DNA of 46,788 nt from a virus (IMGVR_UViG_2690315742_000007), one strand, 5' to 3'; shown: positions 33,308 to 40,450, counted from the first letter of the stretch. Made by a program: numbers and translations. The notes: generated by a model not told the origin, from the letters alone.

Positions 33308-34357
33308 TTACGCCAGTACGCCAATTGTCAGCGCGCGATCGATAAAACGAAATATCAGCTCCAGTTGGGAGCCATACTTATCTTCAAATGCCACTGTATC
33401 CGTATGCAGCTCGTTGTGATGCTTTCTGCACAAAGGCAACACAAAGAGATCATGTGCTTTTGTTCCCATTCCGCCCTGCCCGTGACCAATCAGATGATGC
33501 GGATCGTCGGCTGGCATACCGCAGCAAGCACACGGCTGTGTCTTAACCCAACGTGTGTATTTCTCCTTAACCCAGCGGCGACGTTTAGGCAGCTTCATGA
33601 AAGATTCCGGAGACTCTGGATCAACGGTGATGCTTACCACCGTCTTTTCCTGTGGTGATTTTTGTTGCTGGTGGGCGTAAGGCAACGGTGCAAGATTTTT
33701 TGTGCGTTGTTTCAATATGCTGGTGGCGGTCTGCTCTCCCGGTACGATGTCGCTTTCGCGGTACACCGAGCAGATTTTTTCCGCTGGTAATCCCAGCGAA
33801 CGACGCGATACAGCCTCAGGTAGTGCATCCACCACCTGATTGCAGACCGCCCACCAGGATAATTCAGCCAAAGATAATTCCCGCTCCTGCGTACCGCTTA
33901 TTGCGTGACGGATGACGTCAATCACCCATGCTGTCAGATTTTGTTGAGCAAGCAGCTCCAGTGATTCCGATGTCTGGTCACGCAGTTGGTTGTCGCAGTG
34001 CCAGCACAACACCATTGCGCCGGTACCATAACGGTGAATGACTGTTTCAGTGTGATGGTAATCGCCATTAGGCCACTGGCAGGATGTAACATGACGTAAT
34101 AGCCAGTCGGACAATGCGCCAACGCCGCCAGCAGCACGAATCACCCGTTCGTTACTAAAAAACGGCAGCAATGTTTTGTCTTCCGCCAGCGGCTGGCGAA
34201 CGGCAGGAACGACTCCGGATGGCAGATTACGCATGCTTTTTGGTTCCGGTTCCACCAGCACTCGAGGATTATGAAATATCTGTATGGATTCACGGCCCGG
34301 CTTAAGGACCACCAGCCCAAGCTCAGGCACCAGAACAGGTCTAAGTAATACCCGCAC
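33308..34357 (-). CDS. ydfU: DUF968-family protein YdfU-like
   Basis: Start assigned to an in-frame GTG preceded by GGAGG (349 aa); C-terminal Cys/His cluster (CACCG...HHLIGHG...CRKHH). Longest ORF is 362 aa. Confidence 0.55.
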   Translation of the reverse strand: MRVLLRPVLVPELGLVVLKPGRESIQIFHNPRVLVEPEPKSMRNLPSGVVPAVRQPLAEDKTLLPFFSNERVIRAAGGVGALSDWLLRHVTSCQWPNGDYHHTETVIHRYGTGAMVLCWHCDNQLRDQTSESLELLAQQNLTAWVIDVIRHAISGTQERELSLAELSWWAVCNQVVDALPEAVSRRSLGLPAEKICSVYRESDIVPGEQTATSILKQRTKNLAPLPYAHQQQKSPQEKTVVSITVDPESPESFMKLPKRRRWVKEKYTRWVKTQPCACCGMPADDPHHLIGHGQGGMGTKAHDLFVLPLCRKHHNELHTDTVAFEDKYGSQLELIFRFIDRALTIGVLA

Positions 34358-34358
34358 G

Positions 34359-34637
34359 TTACCTCCAGATCCGTTGCTGGAAAGTGCGGGACGCACGTGG
34401 TGGGCGTTCGGAATAAGGCAGCCTGACAGAGATTATCCAGTGCCGATAGTCGAGACTGAGAGCTTTCTTAACCTCGAACCCGCGCCTGCGGTAAGAATGA
34501 ATCAGCCATTCGGCCTGTTCTGCAGTGCATGGAGGGTGCTGGAACCATTCAGACTTGAATGCGTGAGAATACCGCCCGTGCGTGCAGGCAAGAACGGGCG
34601 AATTATCAGAATTGTAATATTTTGCGTTGCGTGCCAT
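34359..34637 (-). CDS. Hypothetical 92-aa Cys/His-containing protein, translationally coupled to ydfU
   Basis: ORF MARNAKYYNSDNSPVLACTHGRYSHAFKSEWFQHPPC... ends one nt before the ydfU GTG start. Confidence 0.4.
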   Translation of the reverse strand: MARNAKYYNSDNSPVLACTHGRYSHAFKSEWFQHPPCTAEQAEWLIHSYRRRGFEVKKALSLDYRHWIISVRLPYSERPPRASRTFQQRIWR

Positions 34638-34703
34638 CGGTTTTCTCCGGTGGCACGGTGTTACTCAGCGGGAGTTCAGCCCCGCGCAAGATTGTAGATG
34701 AGT

Positions 34704-34955
34704 TTATTCTCCTGAAAAAGCAGAAAAGCCAGCTTTTATTCCGATCTCTTTCAATGCCTGTAATGAAGTGACAAACTCACCTTCGCGCAAGATAAATCCG
34801 TCCGTGACCCGAGCATCCACAAAATTAATTAACGCAGCCCCATTCTTTCGCAAACACATAATGCGGTAATGACTAACAAGATTTCCATTTTCAACGCACA
34901 CAGCATAGAGGCCATCTTCACAAAAAATTTTACGCAGTTCTTCGATGTTCATCAT
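34704..34955 (-). CDS. rem: Small protein Rem-like
   Basis: 83-aa ORF next to hokD; length and position match K-12 rem. Assignment is from memory of the locus, not sequence identity. Confidence 0.45.
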   Translation of the reverse strand: MMNIEELRKIFCEDGLYAVCVENGNLVSHYRIMCLRKNGAALINFVDARVTDGFILREGEFVTSLQALKEIGIKAGFSAFSGE

Positions 34956-35084
34956 CAGAATCCTTCCGGATAATTAGCTCTCCCCTTTAAGGGACCATCC
35001 CTCTTATCCCTGCGCGCTACTTAAGTATTTTTGATTCTATTCCGGCACCGTCCAGAACTTCAAACGCGTTGAAAATAAAAACAA

Positions 35085-35105
35085 AAACCCGCCGAAGCGG
35101 GTTAA
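35085..35105 (-). terminator. Terminator downstream of hokD / relBE operon
   Basis: Hairpin AACCCGCTTCGGCGGGTT followed by a T-run on the minus strand. Coordinates approximate. Confidence 0.55.
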
Positions 35106-35171
35106 GTGCGGGTGCGTTGAGGATGCCTGCCACATCAGAGGTGGCGAGGGATTTCTCCCCCGCCGGGTCTC

Positions 35172-35327
35172 TTACTCCTCAGGTTCGTAAGCTGTGAAGA
35201 CAGCGACCTCCGTCTGGCCGGTTCGGATTCGTACCTCGCAGAGGTCTTTCCTCGTTACCAGTGCCGTCACTATGACGGTTAAACAGATGACGATCAGGGC
35301 GATTAACATCGCCTTTTGCTGCTTCAT
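35172..35327 (-). CDS. hokD: Hok-family type I toxin (HokD / RelF)
   Basis: Hand-translated 51 aa: MKQQKAMLIALIVICLTVIVTALVTRKDLCEVRIRTGQTEVAVFTAYEPEE. Confidence 0.8.
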   Translation of the reverse strand: MKQQKAMLIALIVICLTVIVTALVTRKDLCEVRIRTGQTEVAVFTAYEPEE

Positions 35328-35398
35328 AGCCTGCTTCTCCTGTCAACGCAAAGCAGAAGTGTCACCTTCGGTGCGAAACAGAGATGTCATGCTTTGGT

Positions 35399-35686
35399 TC
35401 AGAGAATGCGTTTGACCGCCTCGCTATATACTTCCGAGCGTTCTCTTTTCCCAACAGAAATCACGAAAACGACAACTTTCTCGTCTATAACCTGGTATAC
35501 AAGGCGATAGCCTGAAGACCGGAGCTTAATCTTGTAACAATCAGGCATACCACGGAGCTTGTTTGCTTCAATCCGGGGTGACTTAAGTACTTCAACCAGC
35601 TTCTTTTTCAACTGTTCACGTACCGTCGAGCCCAGCTTTCGCCATTCCTTTAGTGCCCGCTCGTCAAAATCCAGAAAATACGCCAT
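35399..35686 (-). CDS. relE: RelE mRNA interferase toxin
   Basis: 95 aa, MAYFLDFDERALKEWRKLGSTVREQLKKKLVEVLKSPRIEANKLRGMPDCYKIKLRSSGYRLVYQV... Confidence 0.9.
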   Translation of the reverse strand: MAYFLDFDERALKEWRKLGSTVREQLKKKLVEVLKSPRIEANKLRGMPDCYKIKLRSSGYRLVYQVIDEKVVVFVISVGKRERSEVYSEAVKRIL

Positions 35687-35925
35687 CAGAGTTCATCCAG
35701 CGTCACACGTACTGGCTTAGGATTACGAAGCCGTTCTTTCACTATCTCCACAAGTTCAGCATCTTCATCACTCAGGAGTGTCTGTTTGAACGGCAAGCGT
35801 TCATTGTCAGCGATATACTCGAGCATGAGACGAAGCGCTTCAGAAGGAGTTACACCCATTTTTTCAAGCGCGGCGTAAGAACGCGCTTTAAGTTCATCGT
35901 CAATACGCAGGTTAATGCTACCCAT
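35686..35925 (-). CDS. relB: RelB antitoxin
   Basis: 79 aa, MGSINLRIDDELKARSYAALEKMGVTPSEALRLMLEYIADNERLPF...; overlaps the relE start. Confidence 0.9.
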   Translation of the reverse strand: MGSINLRIDDELKARSYAALEKMGVTPSEALRLMLEYIADNERLPFKQTLLSDEDAELVEIVKERLRNPKPVRVTLDEL

Positions 35926-35936
35926 GTCTTACACCT

Positions 35937-35962
35937 CTTGTAATTACAAATGTCATTACAAG
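35937..35962 (-). promoter_or_regulatory. relBE operator/promoter palindromes (relO)
   Basis: CTTGTAAT...ATTACAAG inverted repeat with an inner perfect palindrome TTGTAATTACAA, immediately upstream of relB. Confidence 0.6.
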
Positions 35963-36255
35963 TATCGCACTACAACATGCTTAGGGCAAGTCACGAAGGA
36001 AGTCAGAAAGTAGTCGTAAGAACGGTGATCACTGTCCGCTTTGTGCCAGGAGCAGCCATTGCTAAGTCCATCCTGTATTGTGCAGGTCAGCTCGTTTTTA
36101 AAGAGTCCGGCCATCATCTTACTGGTACAGACACCATATACTTTGTGACGGTCAGGCTACATATGCACAACTCAACTTATTCATCTATTTTTTGCTTTAG
36201 CATGTCAGTGTTGCTTTCTCGTCGGCGGGTGAGCGGTGACCTGACCTGTCGATAA
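35950..36255 (+). CDS. ydfV: Hypothetical protein, possibly YdfV-like
   Basis: 101-aa ORF between relB and flxA; only length and position support it, and its start overlaps the relO palindrome. Confidence 0.3.
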   Translation: MSLQVSHYNMLRASHEGSQKVVVRTVITVRFVPGAAIAKSILYCAGQLVFKESGHHLTGTDTIYFVTVRLHMHNSTYSSIFCFSMSVLLSRRRVSGDLTCR

Positions 36256-36407
36256 AGGAACGTAACACGTTTTATGCAACACCCGCATGCGGCAGAAAAT
36301 TATTGCCGAACGTTTACCCCTGTCAACAAGCTTTACTTTCTGAGGCGCGCCAGCCCGCGAGGAAAACAATCTGAACATCAAACAATTAATGACACAAGAA
36401 ATACGAT

Positions 36408-36434
36408 TAAAGATTTTTTTGTGCATGCCGATAG
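36408..36434 (+). promoter_or_regulatory. Sigma28 (FliA) class-3 promoter upstream of flxA
   Basis: TAAAGATT, 11-nt spacer, GCCGATAG against consensus TAAAGTTT-N11-GCCGATAA; about 25 nt upstream of the flxA ATG. Confidence 0.6.
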
Positions 36435-36457
36435 TGCTTTTTTAAAAGGAGAAATCT

Positions 36458-36790
36458 ATGTCTGTCACAATTCAGGGAAATACCTCAACCGTTATTTCAA
36501 ACAACTCCGCCCCGGAAGGAACATCAGAAATAGCCAAAATCACAAGACAAATTCAGGTGCTGACTGAAAAGCTTGGGAAAATCTCATCGGAAGAGGGGAT
36601 GACGACACAGCAGAAAAAAGAAATGGCTGCATTGGTACAGAAGCAAATTGAAAGCCTCTGGGCTCAACTGGAGCAGTTGTTAAGGCAGCAGGCAGAGAAA
36701 AAGAATGAAGACGCGACAGTTCAGCCTGATAAAAAAGAAGAGAAAAAAGACGATACAAATACCGCTGGCACCATTGATATTTACGTCTAA
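36458..36790 (+). CDS. flxA: FlxA (FliA-regulated protein)
   Basis: 110 aa, MSVTIQGNTSTVISNNSAPEGTSEIAKITRQIQVLTEKLGK... Confidence 0.8.
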   Translation: MSVTIQGNTSTVISNNSAPEGTSEIAKITRQIQVLTEKLGKISSEEGMTTQQKKEMAALVQKQIESLWAQLEQLLRQQAEKKNEDATVQPDKKEEKKDDTNTAGTIDIYV

Positions 36791-36804
36791 GTGACAGCCG
36801 TATT

Positions 36805-36828
36805 GTGGCCCTCATCGGGCCACTTTTC
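36805..36828 (+). terminator. flxA rho-independent terminator
   Basis: GTGGCCC-tcatc-GGGCCAC hairpin followed by TTTT, 15 nt after the flxA stop. Coordinates approximate. Confidence 0.6.
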
Positions 36829-36999
36829 GCCATCAGCCTTTTCTTTAAAGACATATTATCTTTGTATCATTTCTGATAGTTAACATTACAAGATATAAGT
36901 AATGGACGCACTCCCAATTAGTCTATTTAAATCGCCACGAGTTTAACTGACAACCCATGATCAATTATGAATTGCAACTATTTCTGTAGTCACTTTTGT

Positions 37000-38650
37000 G
37001 GGGACAGTCCACAAAACTGCCAACTTCCGCTTCTTGCTCTTAGCGGACATTAGCATAGGCTATTTACCATAACGCCTCATTACGCGCACCGCCCAGACTG
37101 ACTCAGCGCGTTTCTGGCATATCCCCGGTAAAACAAGTAACAAACCACCCGAAAATGAACACCAGAAACGCGACTTAAGAATCTACCCTATGAATGGATA
37201 TGCACTCAACCGAATCGATCTTGGTTTCAATCTTTTTTATCGGGATCAGGCTTCTTTTTAGGTAACTTCGGGGGCTTAACTTGCTGATGACTTTGCGTTC
37301 GGCGCGTAAGCCAGGGATGGTCAGCTTTAGGTTTAACATAGTATTTTGAGCGTAAATCAATACGGGCATTATCCACTCGTTCATGGACACTCTTTTCATC
37401 ATCCAGTGGTATAGGCTCCGGGCCATCAACATACTTTTCCCAGCCCAGCGCTTTCCCGTCATACAGAACGTTAATTTCACCGTCAAAGTTCTCGCATACA
37501 GTAACAACCGAATGCCTAAGTCGATATCCCCGGCCCTCACTGCGTACCTGAAACGCACTGCTTTTGTACTGGAAAGTGAGATTTTTAGACAGAACGCGCT
37601 TCGCCTGTAGGCTGAAGATATAACCCAGTTCCTCTTCAGAATGGTGCACATCAAGATGAGCATTATCAGTAGTACGAGGCGACGTAGCGAACCGGTTGTT
37701 ATAGGCTTCAATAAAGGTCGGCAACCATGCATTTGCTGTTTCAATATCACTGATATTCTGAAGCCGCATTTCTTTGACCAGCCTGTCCTGTAGTGTCTGA
37801 TTGGCGCGCTCTACCCGCCCTTTTGCCTGCGGGCTGTTGGCATGGATTGGCTCGATGCCCAGTGTCTTTATCGCACGAGTGAACTGGGTCAGCTCACCTT
37901 CCCGCTCTGGGTTATTTACCCTGAATATACTGTGTCTATCAGAGTAGAGAGCGAGCGGTACGCCATGATCATTAAGGTAACCCCGGAGGGTTTCCATGTA
38001 AGCCCGGGTTGTTTCAGCAGGCACAAAACGCAACGCCATCAACGCACTGGTGGCATCATCAATGAAAACGATCAGTGTACATCTGGGGCCTCGATTTTCA
38101 AACCAGTCATGAGGTGAGCCATCAATCTGGATCAGTTCACCGTAAGATGGTCGTCGCATGCGGCGTTGATATATACGGGCAATTTTACGACGGCGTTCAC
38201 GCCATAACCCCTCTTCTATCATCCACTTTCTGAGAGTTTCAACGGATAAAGATAAACCGTGTATCTCGCGCAATTTTTCGCACGCAAACGTAGGTCCAAA
38301 ATCAGCGTAACGGCCTTTGAGGAGTGAAATTACTGTTGCTCTGAATTCAGTAGAAAAGGAATTATTAGGACGCTTTCCACGTCGGTGGGAAACCAGACCA
38401 GAAGGCCCTTCATTTCTATACCGTTGCACCAGACGTTTAACCTGCCGAATAGAAATGCCAATGCGTGCCGCAGCTTGTTCCTGAATAATCTGAAGTCGGT
38501 GGAGTTCCTTATGACTCATCGTAACAGTCTCTTTGATCATGAAAAATCCCCCAGAGAATTGTCTGGGGACATTTTAGAATGGTTCAAAGGGGACATTACA
38601 GCTTGGTGTTAACAATAGCCTGCTTCTCCGTGCCTTTCGGCACGTAAGAG
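37000..38650 (-). mobile_element. Probable insertion element carrying the rve transposase; ends not resolved
   Basis: Transposase gene at a position that in K-12 Qin holds integrase and ydfW/ydfX remnants. I could not find clean terminal inverted repeats by eye; hairpin-like GGGGACA motifs occur near both ends. Confidence 0.4.
37227..38540 (-). CDS. DDE (rve/integrase-core) transposase-like protein with N-terminal HTH; IS481-like by architecture
   Basis: 437-aa ORF: N-terminal HTH (IGISIRQVKRLVQRY), central DDE region with a ...SPQAKGRVERANQTL... motif. Family call is from motif pattern only. Confidence 0.65.
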   Translation of the reverse strand: MIKETVTMSHKELHRLQIIQEQAAARIGISIRQVKRLVQRYRNEGPSGLVSHRRGKRPNNSFSTEFRATVISLLKGRYADFGPTFACEKLREIHGLSLSVETLRKWMIEEGLWRERRRKIARIYQRRMRRPSYGELIQIDGSPHDWFENRGPRCTLIVFIDDATSALMALRFVPAETTRAYMETLRGYLNDHGVPLALYSDRHSIFRVNNPEREGELTQFTRAIKTLGIEPIHANSPQAKGRVERANQTLQDRLVKEMRLQNISDIETANAWLPTFIEAYNNRFATSPRTTDNAHLDVHHSEEELGYIFSLQAKRVLSKNLTFQYKSSAFQVRSEGRGYRLRHSVVTVCENFDGEINVLYDGKALGWEKYVDGPEPIPLDDEKSVHERVDNARIDLRSKYYVKPKADHPWLTRRTQSHQQVKPPKLPKKKPDPDKKD

Positions 38651-38874
38651 GCTAACCTACATGTGTCTAGCATGAAATTGGCCTCAGATTAATGTTAAGC
38701 GTCTTGCAGGACGCGTAATGTTAACTGGGGCTTTTCTCTATCTGCCGTTGGTGTCCATGCCCGAGGCAGATAGCCTCAAGCACCCGCAGTCATTCTACTT
38801 AACTAAGATTTCCCCGCAAACCGTTTTTGTCCAGCACAGTAAATATCCAACTAAACCAATGGAGTTCGCTGTAT

Positions 38875-39093
38875 TTACCGCCAGTATTCAATGCACATGA
38901 CCGCCATGAACACCCCTAAAAAAAGGGCATTTATATATCCAAATATTAATATCAAAACATCAACTTTTTCCATATACCTTGCTGTGAAGATGATGGGCAT
39001 ACATGATGCGAACAACCAGAACGCAACAAACAAAAACTGCAATGCGTTTTTCATTATTCCTCCTACAATCAATGTGCAATTACATTTAAACAC
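38875..39093 (-). CDS. Hypothetical small membrane protein (two predicted TM helices)
   Basis: 72-aa ORF, strongly hydrophobic (LQFLFVAFWLFASCMPIIF ... ILIFGYINALFLGVFMAVMCI). No recognisable family. Confidence 0.3.
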   Translation of the reverse strand: MFKCNCTLIVGGIMKNALQFLFVAFWLFASCMPIIFTARYMEKVDVLILIFGYINALFLGVFMAVMCIEYWR

Positions 39094-39099
39094 ACCTCA

Positions 39100-39784
39100 A
39101 TTTGGCCGGACATATAAATATCTAAACCAGAAAAAATCACTTACATAGCGTTACAAACTCTTTAGTCTAAAGGTTCATCGTAAAACATTCCCCATACTTA
39201 TCAGTCCGTTCCGCGCCAGGTAGCTCATTGCCTTATCTGGCAACCTGTAATCAGGTTTCCGCTTTTTCAGTTGGCTGGTCGTTTAACCGACATAGTTAAT
39301 CCATTAATCTAGTTGCCGGATGTTGGTGGATTTTCGCGTTTTAGTTGTTCATAAAAGTGCACAGCTTTAACCAGTTCTTCTGATGTAACTGGGACTGGTG
39401 AGGCAGTGAATAAGGCCTGAATTTGATAGTTCGGCCTGTCGTTACAATCCTCTTTTTTCGGTACATATTTCCAGTCACCAGACCACTACTTCCCCTGAAA
39501 GTCCGTAACGCCTTTTTTCACGTAGCGATATCGCCATGCCACTGGTTTTGCTTGCCCCGCCGTTTCATGCCCTTCCTGATAATTAATCTCGCTCATTCAT
39601 CGCCCCACTCATCACAATATGCTTCGACCGGAGTTTTTCCCGCTTCATAGTCATCACGCTAGGATTCGACATCAGCAGCACTTCCACCGCGTAACTCACC
39701 ATAGTCCATTAATAGTTCATCCCGCTCTTCAAAACTGATGTTATATTTAGCTGAACAAAAATCAGCCACTTTGTTCTTCCTCAT
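39100..39784 (-). pseudogene. Decayed early-region ORF remnants downstream of the ydaT-like gene
   Basis: Minus-strand reading gives a string of short ORFs (40, 23, 35 and about 58 codons) interrupted by stops; the first starts in an ATGA overlap with the ydaT-like stop. No ORF of 60 aa or more on this strand. Confidence 0.35.
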
Positions 39785-40236
39785 CGTCTTTTATTTCGTG
39801 GTATGAGTAATGTTTCACGATCCACTACGGCAGGATCAGCAAAAAGCAGTCCGGACTCCACCACATCGCCATATTCTTTGTTTAACCCGGCGATCATGCA
39901 CGTGATGCTTTTTCCGTCAGTAATTTCACGATACAACCTGAAATCATTAATCCGGATAGCCTCCATAATTGCAGGCACTAGCGCCGTGAACTTTTCACGC
40001 TTATCCCTGGTGTCGATAGCCTTCCAGCGTTCAAATATCTTCACTCGATTAACGCCAAGCGCTCGCTGATCAATCGCGCCACCTTCATATGTGACACGCT
40101 GAACATCGATGTTCGGGCGCTCTTTCAAAGCCCAGAATGCTTCAGTGATTAATATCGTCGCCTGCTCCTGTGTCATTCCTGGTCGACATATCCAGGCATC
40201 CAGAGCCTCACGAGCCTGTTCAGGAGTGATTTTCAT
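39781..40236 (-). CDS. YdaT-like protein, second gene of the dicC (cro-side) operon
   Basis: 151-aa ORF overlapping the dicC 3' end; resembles Rac YdaT (shared ...ALVPAI.../...ALLPAI... region). K-12 Qin has only fragments (ydfX/ydfW) here. Confidence 0.5.
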   Translation of the reverse strand: MKITPEQAREALDAWICRPGMTQEQATILITEAFWALKERPNIDVQRVTYEGGAIDQRALGVNRVKIFERWKAIDTRDKREKFTALVPAIMEAIRINDFRLYREITDGKSITCMIAGLNKEYGDVVESGLLFADPAVVDRETLLIPRNKRR

Positions 40237-40450
40237 TGTTCAACCGCCCCGCCCGCTTCGTCTTACGATATTCATCATAAACTTTGGGATCATACTGAAG
40301 CTCCCCGCCAGATGCCTCCTGTAGACGCATCGCGCGACCTTCGGGAACTAAATCCCCTTTCCAGCTATAAAGCGAAGCCAAACGAATACCTGCTGCTTGT
40401 GCAAGTTTTGTTTTTGAACCGAAATACAAAAGAGCGTCAGTTTTAAGCAT
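40220..40450 (-). CDS. dicC: DicC, Cro-like repressor of the immunity region
   Basis: 76 aa, MLKTDALLYFGSKTKLAQAAGIRLASLYSWKGDLVPEGRAMRLQEASGGELQYDP... Confidence 0.85.
   Translation of the reverse strand: MLKTDALLYFGSKTKLAQAAGIRLASLYSWKGDLVPEGRAMRLQEASGGELQYDPKVYDEYRKTKRAGRLNNENHS

What the first reader, a model, noticed from the sequence alone, without database searches (positions are those of the whole stretch)
36840..39784. Early-region scar: rve transposase insertion plus decayed ORFs where replication genes would be expected
Between flxA and the YdaT-like gene lies a 437-aa DDE/rve transposase-like gene with no clean terminal inverted repeats that I could find, an orphan 72-aa membrane ORF, and about 700 nt of frame-broken short ORFs. 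This is where lambdoid phages encode replication functions (Rac has ydaU/ydaV here), so the replication module seems to have been destroyed by insertion and decay rather than simply missing.
Basis: partly seen in the sequence, partly recalled or inferred. Interest (0 to 1): 0.45.

Follow-up and report, generated by a model that had tools for sequence, protein, structure and literature searches.

The report
Hok-targeting transposon plus deleted replication genes
The "stray transposase" belongs to a 3.3-kb transposon that carries the classic relBE toxin-antitoxin genes and flxA and has landed exactly on the start codon of the prophage's hok toxin gene, while the phage replication genes were lost through a separate, clean 2.25-kb deletion.

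Summary
The 437-aa gene (37227-38540, minus) is the ISEsa1-type (IS1202-family) transposase. It is identical to the widespread plasmid copy apart from a 9-aa in-frame deletion.

Terminal repeats seemed absent because the real right end lies beyond relE. The element spans 35341-38614 (3274 bp), has 5'-TGT...ACA-3' ends and 22/30 inverted repeats, and contains tnp, flxA, ydfV, relB and relE. A 15-bp duplication, GGAGAAGCAGGCTAT, flanks it. That sequence is hokD's ribosome-binding site plus the "AT" of its ATG. The insertion splits an intact hok/sok leader (38615-38785) from hokD.

The same layout recurs with other cargo, always with relBE. It appears in other hok loci with their own duplications on IncHI2 and IncF plasmids and in about 146 of 161 surveyed loci. 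A 75%-identical simple IS sits on the ATG of an Ldr toxin gene.

The replication module (O-like initiator, DUF977, methyltransferase) is missing because of a 2254-bp deletion. Its junction is at 39811|39812, inside the YdaT-like gene, and only 9 of 5426 E. coli genomes share it. Sibling prophages carry the transposon and intact O together.

The broken ORFs are decayed small genes of unknown function lying downstream of where the module was, not replication remnants.

The parts
38615..38629 (-). Left copy of the 15-bp target-site duplication GGAGAAGCAGGCTAT (hok Shine-Dalgarno plus the 'AT' of the ATG)
   Evidence: The sequence was read directly. It occurs once in the empty site of the ETEC6 prophage L007.
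38615..38785 (-). Orphaned hok/sok leader (mok start, Sok target and antisense gene), cut off from hokD by the transposon
   Evidence: Rfam RF01794 sok matches full length (1-157) at 104 bits against a gathering score of 59; the hit is reported as 38614-38785 and ends at the junction. The region 38631-38831 is 92% identical to the sokW/mokW region of phage 933W. The truncated mok frame stops 5 codons into IRL.
38585..38614 (-). IRL, the left terminal inverted repeat: 5'-TGTTAACACCAAGCTGTAATGTCCCCTTTG. AATGTCC repeats start at element positions 18 and 42.
   Evidence: The boundary is set by the point where identity to independent plasmid copies drops. The match to the right end is 22/30.
38548..38569 (-). 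Terminator-like hairpin directly upstream of the tnp ATG. It probably blocks read-through from the hok promoter.
   Evidence: Consensus scan only; the function is inferred.
37227..38540 (-). ISEsa1-type (IS1202 family/ISNCY) DDE transposase, 437 aa, with a 27-bp in-frame deletion (9 residues at positions 20-29, in the N-terminal HTH region). Its last 49 codons are the 'ydfW/intK' gene of K-12.
   Evidence: NCBIfam NF033594 scores 456 bits. The protein is 100% identical to plasmid Tnp WP_004196353 apart from the 9-aa gap. The ydfW relationship is shown.
37025..37048 (-). GTCCGC-N12-GCGGA(A/C) palindrome marking the end of the conserved left arm and the start of the variable cargo. It corresponds to the region ISfinder appears to treat as the ISEsa1 right end.
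   Evidence: A clear second copy borders the relB side of the cargo in the other elements; in this window that copy is degenerate (GGCTGC in place of GTCCGC).
36054..37021 (-). Variable cargo segment of this copy. It holds flxA (36458-36790, plus strand) and the 3' part of the ydfV ORF (35950-36255, plus strand).
   Evidence: This segment is replaced by other genes between the same two borders in elements L010, L011, L018, L036, L085, L105 and L164. FlxA matches Pfam PF14282.
35399..35925 (-). relB (35686-35925) and relE (35399-35686), the conserved right-arm genes of the transposon
   Evidence: Both are present at 91-100% protein identity at the right end of all 12 elements whose two ends could be read. 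The right arm 35341-36053 is 98.5-98.9% identical to plasmid copies.
35341..35370 (-). IRR, the right terminal inverted repeat, ending ...CTTCTGCTTTGCGTTGACA-3'
   Evidence: 22/30 match to IRL; only 6 of 200,000 random window 30-mers reach that score. It matches the IRR of the cargo-free relative in Salmonella at 24/26 by my own comparison of the printed sequences.
35326..35340 (-). Right copy of the 15-bp target-site duplication. It restores the Shine-Dalgarno sequence and start context of hokD.
35172..35327 (-). hokD (51 aa), the toxin gene of the targeted type I system, now lying downstream of relE
   Evidence: It is annotated hokD in sibling genomes.
38875..39093 (-). 72-aa ORF with two hydrophobic segments; possibly a real small membrane protein of this prophage lineage
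   Evidence: No Pfam or PHROG family matches it. Homologues occur only in E. coli and Shigella. A 76%-identical homologue keeps the frame open. An 83-85-aa ORF on the opposite strand is also open.
39344..39596 (-). Pseudogene of an 85-aa early gene, with a frameshift near 39513-39517
   Evidence: tblastn with the intact gene of phage vB_EcoS-640R1 gives two matches in different frames. PGAP annotates the same stretch as 'frameshifted; internal stop' in L001.
39596..39769 (-). Pseudogene of a 58-aa early gene (phrog_519) with an in-frame stop (W to stop)
39765..39812 (-). The last 16 codons of a DUF7167 gene; the rest was lost in the deletion
39811..39812 (.). Junction of the 2254-bp deletion. 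It removed the C-terminal 31 codons of YdaT/cII-like, the O-like replication initiator (321 aa), DUF977/Ren-like, a SAM methyltransferase and most of the DUF7167 gene.
   Evidence: blastn against L001 and PhiR42_1. There is no microhomology at the junction. The junction is contiguous in 9 of 5426 genomes.
39781..40236 (-). Truncated YdaT/cII-like gene: 142 native residues plus 9 residues read from the far side of the deletion
   Evidence: the intact 173-aa form matches phrog_163, CII-like activator.

Best explanation
Two unrelated events shaped this region.

(1) A transposon in the hok locus.
- An IS1202-family (ISEsa1-type) transposon of 3274 bp occupies 35341-38614. In tnp orientation it reads IRL, tnp, about 205 bp of conserved sequence, cargo (flxA, ydfV), relB, relE, IRR.
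- It is inserted in one orientation between the 'AT' and the 'G' of the hokD start codon of a lambda-like (Qin-type) prophage.
- Staggered cleavage 15 bp apart duplicated the hok ribosome-binding site. The hok/sok leader was left stranded upstream of the transposase. hokD, with a regenerated ribosome-binding site, now lies downstream of relBE; this is the known relBEF operon arrangement.
- Inferred: the single DDE transposase binds the terminal and subterminal AATGTCC-type repeats at both ends. It selects a conserved sequence in the translation-initiation region of type I toxin genes.
- Inferred: the relBE module, present in every copy examined, stabilises the carrier replicon after its hok/sok system has been disrupted.
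- Inferred: this particular copy is probably not autonomous, because 9 residues are missing from the N-terminal DNA-binding region of the transposase.

(2) A separate deletion of the replication module.
- A single 2254-bp illegitimate deletion, with its junction at 39811|39812, removed the only replication-initiator gene (O-like, probably with the origin inside it) and its neighbours. It also truncated the YdaT/cII-like gene.
- Three small downstream genes had already decayed by point mutation. The same lesions are present in sibling prophages that keep O.
- The prophage therefore keeps a full lambda-like structural module but should be unable to replicate.
For: Boundaries and target duplication
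- The left end is defined by the drop from about 100% to about 80% identity against plasmid copies.
- Perfect 15-bp direct repeats flank 35341-38614, and the 15-mer occurs once in the empty site of prophage L007.
- Phage vB_EcoS-640R1 has an uninterrupted mok/hok gene at the equivalent place.
- The terminal repeats match at 22/30 with TGT/ACA tips; 6 of 200,000 random 30-mers reach that score.

Independent copies
- An IncHI2 plasmid carries a 6093-bp element (L010) and an IncFII/R plasmid a 12843-bp element (L011). Both have the same arms, different cargo, relBE, and their own duplication GGAGAAGAAGGCCAT next to different hok genes.
- Of 64 loci with both ends readable, nearly all have perfect 15-16-bp repeats. 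Element lengths range from 2261 to 12843 bp. relBE is present in all 12 elements examined for it.
- A 3301-bp flxA-type element lies at a non-hok site with its own 6-bp repeat (L149). A 2575-bp copy lies at another non-hok site with a 15-bp repeat (L015).

Target preference
- 161 loci with a readable left flank fall into 41 clusters, at least 24 of them distinct hok leaders. By my count about 146 loci are joined at the same position.
- The Rfam sok model ends exactly at the junction.

Relatives
- A 75%-identical transposase in Salmonella belongs to a 1.45-kb IS with the same IRR and a 17-bp duplication ending in the ATG of an Ldr toxin gene.
- 79%-identical relatives abut hok leaders at the same position.

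Deletion
- The O-like identity of the lost gene is phrog_391 at E = 1e-91.
- No remnant of O, DUF977 or the methyltransferase is found in the window.
Against: - No transposition has been observed; everything rests on comparative sequence.
- ISfinder, as quoted in PMC10132070, lists ISEsa1 as a 1609-bp IS with 15/22 repeats. The palindromes at the cargo borders contain transposase-site-like motifs. A 1.6-kb unit that also moves on its own therefore cannot be excluded.
- Many surveyed loci are the same Qin-type insertion inherited vertically, so the number of independent events is far smaller than the number of loci.
- Some loci have non-matching flanks (L117, L178, L152), which shows that recombination between copies also happens.
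- The duplication length is not constant: 13-17 bp at toxin sites and 6 bp at one other site.
- How cargo is exchanged between fixed borders is unexplained.
- The roles proposed for relBE and for the hairpin are inferences.
Confidence: 0.87

Rival explanations
1. One reading: an IS inserted into the early region, and insertion together with gradual decay destroyed the replication genes. On this view the broken ORFs are what remains of them.
For: The transposase and the broken ORFs do lie between the immunity region and the late regulators, where replication genes normally sit. No replication gene is left in the element.
Against: The insertion point is the hokD start codon. Prophages with the identical insertion keep O, DUF977 and the methyltransferase. 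The missing 2254 bp is one clean block. The broken ORFs match small non-replication genes.
Confidence: 0.04
2. Two separate events produced the structure rather than one transposon. A 1.6-kb ISEsa1, as ISfinder defines it, inserted next to a relBE-flxA block that had already entered the hok locus by some other route.
For: ISfinder lists ISEsa1 as 1609 bp (PMC10132070). A palindrome containing AATGTCCGC-type motifs lies at 37025-37048, where the plasmid copies stop being similar. Earlier literature treats relBE as a self-standing horizontally transferred unit integrated into hokD (PMC6379469).
Against: No direct repeat flanks the 1.6-kb unit here or in any surveyed locus, and the published survey also found none. 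The 15-bp repeat brackets the whole 3274 bp. The far end is homologous to the IRR of the cargo-free relative. The tnp arm and the relBE arm occur together in every element regardless of cargo. The whole 3301-bp unit occurs at a non-hok site with its own repeat.
Confidence: 0.07
3. There is no target specificity. One ancient insertion into a hok locus has spread among hok loci of plasmids and prophages by homologous recombination or gene conversion.
For: hok leaders and genes are similar enough to recombine, and recombinant flanks are seen in L117 and L178. Most surveyed loci are the same Qin-type site.
Against: Both copies of the duplication co-vary with the local hok sequence: GGAGAAGCAGGCTAT, GGAGAAGAAGGCCAT, GGAGATGTATGGGTCC and GATGTTAGCCATG. 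The 79% and 75% relatives, which have different ends, hit the same position in hok and the equivalent position in the unrelated ldr gene. A tandem IRR-15 bp-IRL arrangement shows reuse of the regenerated site.
Confidence: 0.08

Closest known systems
ISEsa1 (ISfinder entry; IS1202 family, formerly the ISNCY/IS1202 group)
   Same: The transposase is identical to the common plasmid 'IS1202-like element ISEsa1 family transposase' apart from a 9-aa deletion. The left arm is 99.8% identical over 1569 aligned nt.
   Different: The published description is 1609 bp, 15/22 repeats and no detectable target duplication. Here the functional right end is 1.7 kb further out. The unit carries relBE plus variable cargo, makes a 15-bp duplication and has a preferred target.
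ISAjo2/ISAba71 group of the IS1202 family (dif/pdif-targeting IS of Acinetobacter)
   Same: Both have a single large DDE transposase, 5'-TGT...ACA-3' tips, imperfect 24-26-bp repeats with a second internal binding-site copy near each end, and orientation-specific insertion at a fixed distance from a conserved site (PMC10132070).
   Different: The ISAjo2 group makes 5-bp duplications, targets the XerC side of dif sites and carries no passenger genes. This element makes 13-17-bp duplications, targets the start-codon region of type I toxin genes and carries a type II toxin-antitoxin module.
Transporter IS of the same family (tISKpn21, tISKpn65, tISRel10)
   Same: These are IS1202-family elements that carry extra ORFs between the transposase gene and the right end.
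   Different: They carry one unidentified ORF and make 5-bp duplications. This element has a constant relBE module plus interchangeable cargo of up to about 10 kb (nickel and chromate resistance, a CDF transporter, hydrolase plus LysR regulator, flxA).
relBEF (relB-relE-hokD) operon, flxA, ydfV and ydfW/intK of the E. coli K-12 Qin prophage
   Same: It is the same locus. K-12 matches window 36850-37411 and carries identical flxA, ydfV, relB, relE and hokD proteins. Co-transcription of hokD with relBE is published (cited in PMC5120126). Integration of plasmid-derived relBE into hokD/mok has been noted (PMC6379469).
   Different: K-12 has lost everything from inside tnp (window 37412) into ydaT. 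The left end, the duplication partner and the sok leader are therefore gone, and the transposon cannot be recognised there. I found no paper that describes these genes as parts of a transposon.
Tn7
   Same: The transposase is TnsB-like according to PMC10132070. Both have TGT/ACA ends with repeated binding sites and insert in one orientation into a conserved 'safe' site.
   Different: This element has no TnsA, TnsC or TnsD/E genes. It has a single transposase, a much longer duplication than Tn7's 5 bp, and it disrupts its target.

Membership tests
IS1202 family (ISNCY/IS1202 group) | Large (394-507 aa) DDE transposase homologous to family members | tested here: met
   NCBIfam NF033594 scores 456 bits against a cut-off of 250, covering model positions 7-365 of 368. 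PGAP names identical plasmid proteins 'IS1202-like element ISEsa1 family transposase'.
IS1202 family (ISNCY/IS1202 group) | Outer ends 5'-TGT and ACA-3' with imperfect terminal inverted repeats of about 22-29 bp | tested here: met
   Met only when the ends are placed at 38614 and 35341: TGTTAAC...GTTGACA, matching at 19/26 and 22/30.
IS1202 family (ISNCY/IS1202 group) | A second copy of the inner part of the repeat near each end (an additional transposase-binding site) | tested here: met
   At the left end AATGTCC starts at element positions 18 and 42. At the right end I read GAAGTGTCAC and GAGATGTCAT directly from the sequence printed. Binding itself is not testable here.
IS1202 family (ISNCY/IS1202 group) | Target-site duplication of a subgroup-typical length (3-5, 16-17 or 27-28 bp) | tested here: inconclusive
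   A duplication exists: 15 bp here, 13-17 bp in relatives, and 6 bp at one non-hok site. This is close to the 16-17-bp subgroup but not identical to it.
IS1202 family (ISNCY/IS1202 group) | A simple IS of 1.3-1.75 kb with one ORF | tested here: not met
   The element is 3274 bp with tnp plus relB, relE, flxA and the doubtful ydfV ORF. It is better called a transporter IS or unit transposon of this family.
ISEsa1 as delimited in ISfinder (1609 bp) | The 1.6-kb unit behaves as the mobile unit, with its own two ends and duplication | tested here: not met
   No direct repeat flanks 37022-38614 here or in the surveyed loci. The published survey also reports no duplication.
[quoted passage not shown] | A Hok toxin gene preceded on one contiguous mRNA by the mok/sok regulatory leader | tested here: not met
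   Both halves are intact: hokD at 35172-35327, and the leader at 38614-38785 with a 104-bit Rfam match. They are separated by 3274 bp of transposon.
Lambdoid replication module | An O-like initiator gene (containing the origin), with or without a helicase loader, downstream of cII/YdaT | tested here: not met
   tblastn with the sibling's O-like (phrog_391), DUF977 and methyltransferase proteins gives no match anywhere in the window. Lambda O/P and Rac YdaU/YdaV sequences themselves were not used.
Tn7-like transposons | A TnsA/TnsB/TnsC core plus a target selector | tested here: not met
   There is only one transposase gene. The other ORFs are flxA, ydfV, relB and relE.
Composite (IS-flanked) transposon | Two IS copies bracketing the cargo | tested here: not met
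   There is a single tnp. The right arm holds only relBE and a terminal repeat.

The most novel reading that the evidence does not exclude
The enterobacterial ISEsa1 clade is a group of transposons that home, in one orientation, to the ribosome-binding-site and start-codon region of type I toxin genes. The targets include hok in plasmids and prophages and ldr in the Salmonella chromosome.

Most of these elements bring a type II RelE/ParE-family toxin-antitoxin module that replaces the addiction system they disrupt. They also shuttle variable cargo (nickel and chromate resistance, transporters, flxA) between fixed internal borders.

On this reading the textbook relBE(F) locus of E. coli K-12, together with flxA, ydfV and the 'intK/ydfW' pseudogene, is the right-hand remnant of such a transposon. 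ISEsa1 has been mis-delimited, which would explain why no target duplication was ever found for it.
Probability: 0.6. Interest if true: 0.75.

Novelty: new variant of a known kind. Interest (0 to 1): 0.62.

Why it matters
- It gives a mechanistic origin for one of the most studied toxin-antitoxin loci. It explains why relBE is co-transcribed with a hok gene that has no sok control, and why flxA and a fragment of an "integrase" sit next to it.
- It resolves a published anomaly, that ISEsa1 appears to have no target duplication.
- It identifies a vehicle that moves nickel and chromate resistance and other cargo into the hok/sok stability loci of IncF and IncHI2 plasmids.
- It suggests a new kind of target choice for DDE transposons, the translation-initiation regions of type I toxin genes, which can be tested directly.
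- For the prophage itself the result is ordinary: it is replication-defective because of a lineage-specific deletion.

Tried and rejected
- My first delimitation of the IS, by comparison with plasmid L003, gave 37022-38590. That was wrong at the left end because ISKpn38 interrupts the L003 copy. The sequence on the other side of ISKpn38 showed the true end at 38614.
- I looked for a target duplication around the 1.6-kb unit and after the proximal palindrome in loci with non-hok flanks. None was found.
- A self-comparison of 38500-39900 against the window gave no internal repeat. The 15-bp repeat was only seen through the empty-site comparison.
- A sequence search of the transposase against solved structures gave only a marginal match to a retroviral integrase core. 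I did not run structure prediction.
- Pfam and PHROG searches for the 72-aa ORF and the opposite-strand 85-aa ORF gave nothing. DNA diversity among loci was too low to tell which strand is coding.
- The right end of the 79%-identical ParE-carrying relatives was not found within the fetched loci.
- Literature searches found no description of a hok-targeting transposon. The terms were IS1202 + hok; relBE/hokD/transposon/Qin; 'IS1202 family'; and hok/sok + insertion. The 2016 paper on relBE integration into hokD is not held in the library.
- A search for a paper on phage PhiR42_1/ECOR13 was uninformative.
- I had considered that the hok promoter might drive the transposase. A terminator-like hairpin just before the tnp ATG weakens that idea.
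Full report
**Context.** The window is a Qin-type lambdoid prophage with its chromosomal flank.
- It is collinear at 97.2-99.8% identity with the deposited phage PhiR42_1 from E. coli ECOR13 (48.7 kb), from integrase to side tail fibres, apart from one 2254-bp gap.
- Compared with E. coli C it carries an extra 22 kb (4843-26861). In PhiR42_1 the matching stretch holds lambda-like head and tail genes.
- Around the finding the gene order on the plus strand is: rem; hokD (35172-35327, minus); relE; relB; ydfV; flxA (36458-36790); the 437-aa ORF (37227-38540, minus); then about 1.2 kb without annotated intact genes; a YdaT-like ORF (39781-40236, minus); dicC; dicA.

**The observation.**
- The 437-aa ORF has N-terminal HTH domains and a weak rve_3 match in Pfam. 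It scores 456 bits on NCBIfam 'ISNCY family transposase' against a cut-off of 250.
- The 72-aa hydrophobic ORF and the broken small ORFs are also there.

**Identity of the transposase.**
- tblastn against plasmids shows hundreds of near-identical copies annotated 'IS1202-like element ISEsa1 family transposase' in Klebsiella, Enterobacter, Escherichia and others.
- The window protein equals the 446-aa plasmid protein residue for residue, except for a 9-residue in-frame deletion at positions 20-29 in the N-terminal HTH region. At the DNA level this is a 27-bp deletion whose two ends share the hexamer TCAGGA (read from the alignment).
- RefSeq annotates this ORF in sibling genomes as a C-terminally incomplete pseudogene plus a separate 49-aa 'ydfW'. 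The frame is in fact continuous, and ydfW is simply its last 49 codons.
- In K-12-type genomes the match stops at window 37411 and runs straight into ydfX, a YdaT remnant. K-12 therefore keeps only the transposase tail.

**Where the element really ends.**
- The left end was found by comparison with plasmid copies. Identity is about 100% up to 5'-TGTTAACACC... (window 38614, minus strand) and about 80% beyond it.
- The sequence beyond that end is a hok/sok leader. The Rfam sok model matches 38614-38785 full length at 104 bits, and its last positions, the hok Shine-Dalgarno and AUG, coincide with the junction.
- A related prophage without the element (ETEC6, L007) runs directly from this leader into hokD. 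Its sequence aligns to window 38615-38805 and to window 33308-35341 with a 16-bp overlap.
- Read base by base, the 15-mer GGAGAAGCAGGCTAT (minus strand) is present at 38629-38615 and at 35340-35326. It occurs once in the empty site.
- The segment between the two copies, 35341-38614 (3274 bp), starts with TGT and ends with ACA. Its termini match at 22 of 30 positions, a score reached by only 6 of 200,000 random 30-mers from the window.
- The element therefore contains tnp, flxA, ydfV, relB and relE. This explains why no inverted repeats or duplication could be found around the transposase gene alone.
- The published survey of the IS1202 family lists ISEsa1 as 1609 bp with 15/22 repeats and 'no TSD detected' (PMC10132070). 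That fits a right end assigned at the border of the conserved left arm (about 37022-37033) rather than at the true terminus.

**Independent copies.**
- An IncHI2 plasmid (L010) has hok leader | IRL-tnp-ISEsa2-cytochrome b-CDF transporter-relB-relE-IRR | hok. The element is 6093 bp.
- An IncFII/IncR plasmid (L011) has the mok leader | IRL-tnp-ncrYCBA-...-chrBA-...-relB-relE-IRR | hok. The element is 12843 bp.
- Both have the same termini and their own duplication, GGAGAAGAAGGCCAT, next to hok genes that differ from hokD.
- A scan of three public collections with the 26-nt IRL returned 163 loci.
- Of 64 loci with both ends readable, nearly all have perfect 15-16-bp direct repeats. Lengths run from 2261 to 12843 bp.
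- All 12 elements examined in detail carry relB and relE (91-100% protein identity) in a conserved right arm (window 35341-36053), together with a conserved left arm (38614 to about 37022). The cargo between the arms is unrelated from one type to another.
- A 3301-bp flxA-type element sits at a non-hok site with its own 6-bp repeat. A decayed 2575-bp copy sits at another non-hok site with a 15-bp repeat. The whole unit, not just the 1.6-kb part, is therefore what has moved.

**Target preference.**
- The 161 loci with 80 nt of left flank fall into 41 clusters at 90% identity. At least 24 clusters are distinct hok leaders. By my count from the cluster list about 146 loci are joined at the same position, 15-16 nt after the GGAG of the hok ribosome-binding site, always in the same orientation.
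- One locus shows IRR-15 bp-IRL, which indicates a second insertion into the regenerated site.
- More distant relatives point the same way. A 79%-identical transposase with a different IRL abuts hok leaders at the same position in a Citrobacter plasmid and a Kosakonia chromosome, and is followed by a ParE-type toxin-antitoxin pair.
- A 75%-identical one in Salmonella belongs to a cargo-free IS of about 1.45 kb. Its IRR (...CATTTCTGCTTTGCGTTGACA) is nearly the same as the distal end found here. It is flanked by a 17-bp duplication, CACAAGGCGGCTATATG, that ends in the ATG of an Ldr type I toxin gene.
- A 61%-identical multi-copy relative in Thiorhodospira shows no such target.

**Consequences in this window.** The first point is shown; the rest are inferred.
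- Shown: the mok frame is cut and stops five codons into IRL.
- Inferred: a terminator-like hairpin lies just before the tnp ATG and would insulate the transposase from the hok promoter.
- hokD keeps a ribosome-binding site through the duplication and sits 71 nt after relE. Co-transcription as relBEF is published (cited in PMC5120126).
- Earlier work noted that plasmid-derived relBE had integrated into hokD/mok (PMC6379469). I found no paper describing a transposon, its ends or its target.
- Inferred: the 9-residue deletion in the HTH region probably makes this copy non-autonomous. In the survey about 22 loci have the deleted form (3273-3274 bp) and about 29 the intact form (3299-3304 bp).

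**The replication module.**
- Against strain USMARC-51408 (L001), window 36400-39811 and 39812-40300 align at 100% to segments 2254 bp apart.
- The missing block holds the last 31 codons of the YdaT/cII-like gene, an O-like replication initiator of 321 aa (phrog_391, E = 1e-91, with a DnaD-like C-terminal part), a DUF977/Ren-like gene, a SAM methyltransferase and most of a DUF7167 gene.
- There is no microhomology at the junction.
- The junction is contiguous in only 9 of 5426 complete E. coli genomes, those of the E. coli C lineage.
- L001 and PhiR42_1 carry the transposon at the same site together with the intact module. The insertion therefore did not cause the loss.
- tblastn with the O-like, DUF977 and methyltransferase proteins finds nothing in the window. 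PhiR42_1 has no other gene annotated as a replication protein.

**The broken ORFs and the 72-aa ORF.**
- tblastn with the intact small genes of phage vB_EcoS-640R1 identifies three remnants:
  - 39812-39765: the last 16 codons of the DUF7167 gene.
  - 39769-39596: a 58-aa gene (phrog_519) with an in-frame stop.
  - 39596-39344: an 85-aa gene with a frameshift.
- The stop and the frameshift are also present in L001, where the module is intact. They are older than the deletion and unrelated to it.
- The 72-aa ORF has no family. It occurs only in E. coli and Shigella. A 76%-identical homologue keeps it open with conservative substitutions, so it may be a real small membrane protein. An overlapping ORF on the other strand is equally open.

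**Verdict.**
- As a statement about the prophage, the finding is ordinary: a lineage-specific deletion removed the replication genes.
It is an IS1202-family unit transposon with a constant relBE module and exchangeable cargo, and it homes to the start codon of type I toxin genes. The K-12 relBEF/flxA/ydfW region is its remnant.
- The structural part of this claim is strongly supported by comparative sequence. Activity, the targeting mechanism and the role of relBE are inferred.

Noticed in passing
window 37025-37048; the equivalent borders in L010, L011, L018, L036, L085, L105 and L164: The cargo borders carry the same kind of palindrome, GTCCGC-N12-GCGGAC, containing the AATGTCCGC motif that resembles the transposase-site repeats of IRL. 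In this window the border next to tnp is clear and the one next to relB is degenerate. Cargo differs completely between these fixed borders. This suggests an unknown cassette-exchange mechanism or internal pseudo-ends.
   Followed up: partly
L164 (IMG/VR contig), same hokD site as the window: An element with arms 99.7-99.9% identical to the window copy, in the same Qin-type hokD site, carries a 2356-bp hydrolase plus LysR-regulator cargo instead of flxA. The cargo has therefore been swapped in place.
   Followed up: partly
window 37227-37376 and sibling genomes L001, L002, L014: RefSeq annotates the continuous 437-aa transposase ORF as a 'missing C-terminus' pseudogene plus a separate ydfW gene. 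This looks like an annotation artefact inherited from K-12, where only the last 49 codons survive.
   Followed up: yes
window 4843-26861: The prophage keeps about 22 kb that E. coli C lacks. In the collinear phage PhiR42_1 this stretch holds lambda-like head and tail genes. The window prophage is otherwise a near-complete PhiR42_1-like phage whose main visible defect is the 2254-bp deletion.
   Followed up: partly
E. coli C (L002/L031), equivalent to window 38741-38748: E. coli C and its relatives share the replication-module deletion. They also have an ISSen4 inserted into the orphaned hok/sok leader. The window lacks this IS.
   Followed up: partly
L026 (Citrobacter portucalensis) and L103: In L026 the IRL abuts the reverse complement of the hok start region, which implies an inversion. 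In L103 an IRR, a 15-bp spacer and an IRL lie in tandem, which implies a second insertion into the regenerated target.
   Followed up: no
L006 (E. coli KW21), equivalent to window 36034-37050: The flxA cargo segment, with only 20-30 bp of each transposon arm, occurs in another prophage-like region next to pao genes, without tnp or relBE. It is either a doubly deleted remnant or a clue to where the cargo came from.
   Followed up: no
window 35082-35163 (minus): A weak sub-threshold match to the Rfam isrK sRNA family (25 bits against a gathering score of 50, E = 0.024) just downstream of hokD. It ends in a GC-rich hairpin followed by a T-run, so it is probably just the hok 3' terminator.
   Followed up: no
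plasmid hits H125-H129, equivalent to window 37021-37185: The roughly 165 bp between the tnp stop and the cargo border occur alone, at about 89% identity, in several Shigella, E. coli, Klebsiella and Citrobacter plasmids with no annotated gene. They may be remnants of deleted elements.
   Followed up: no
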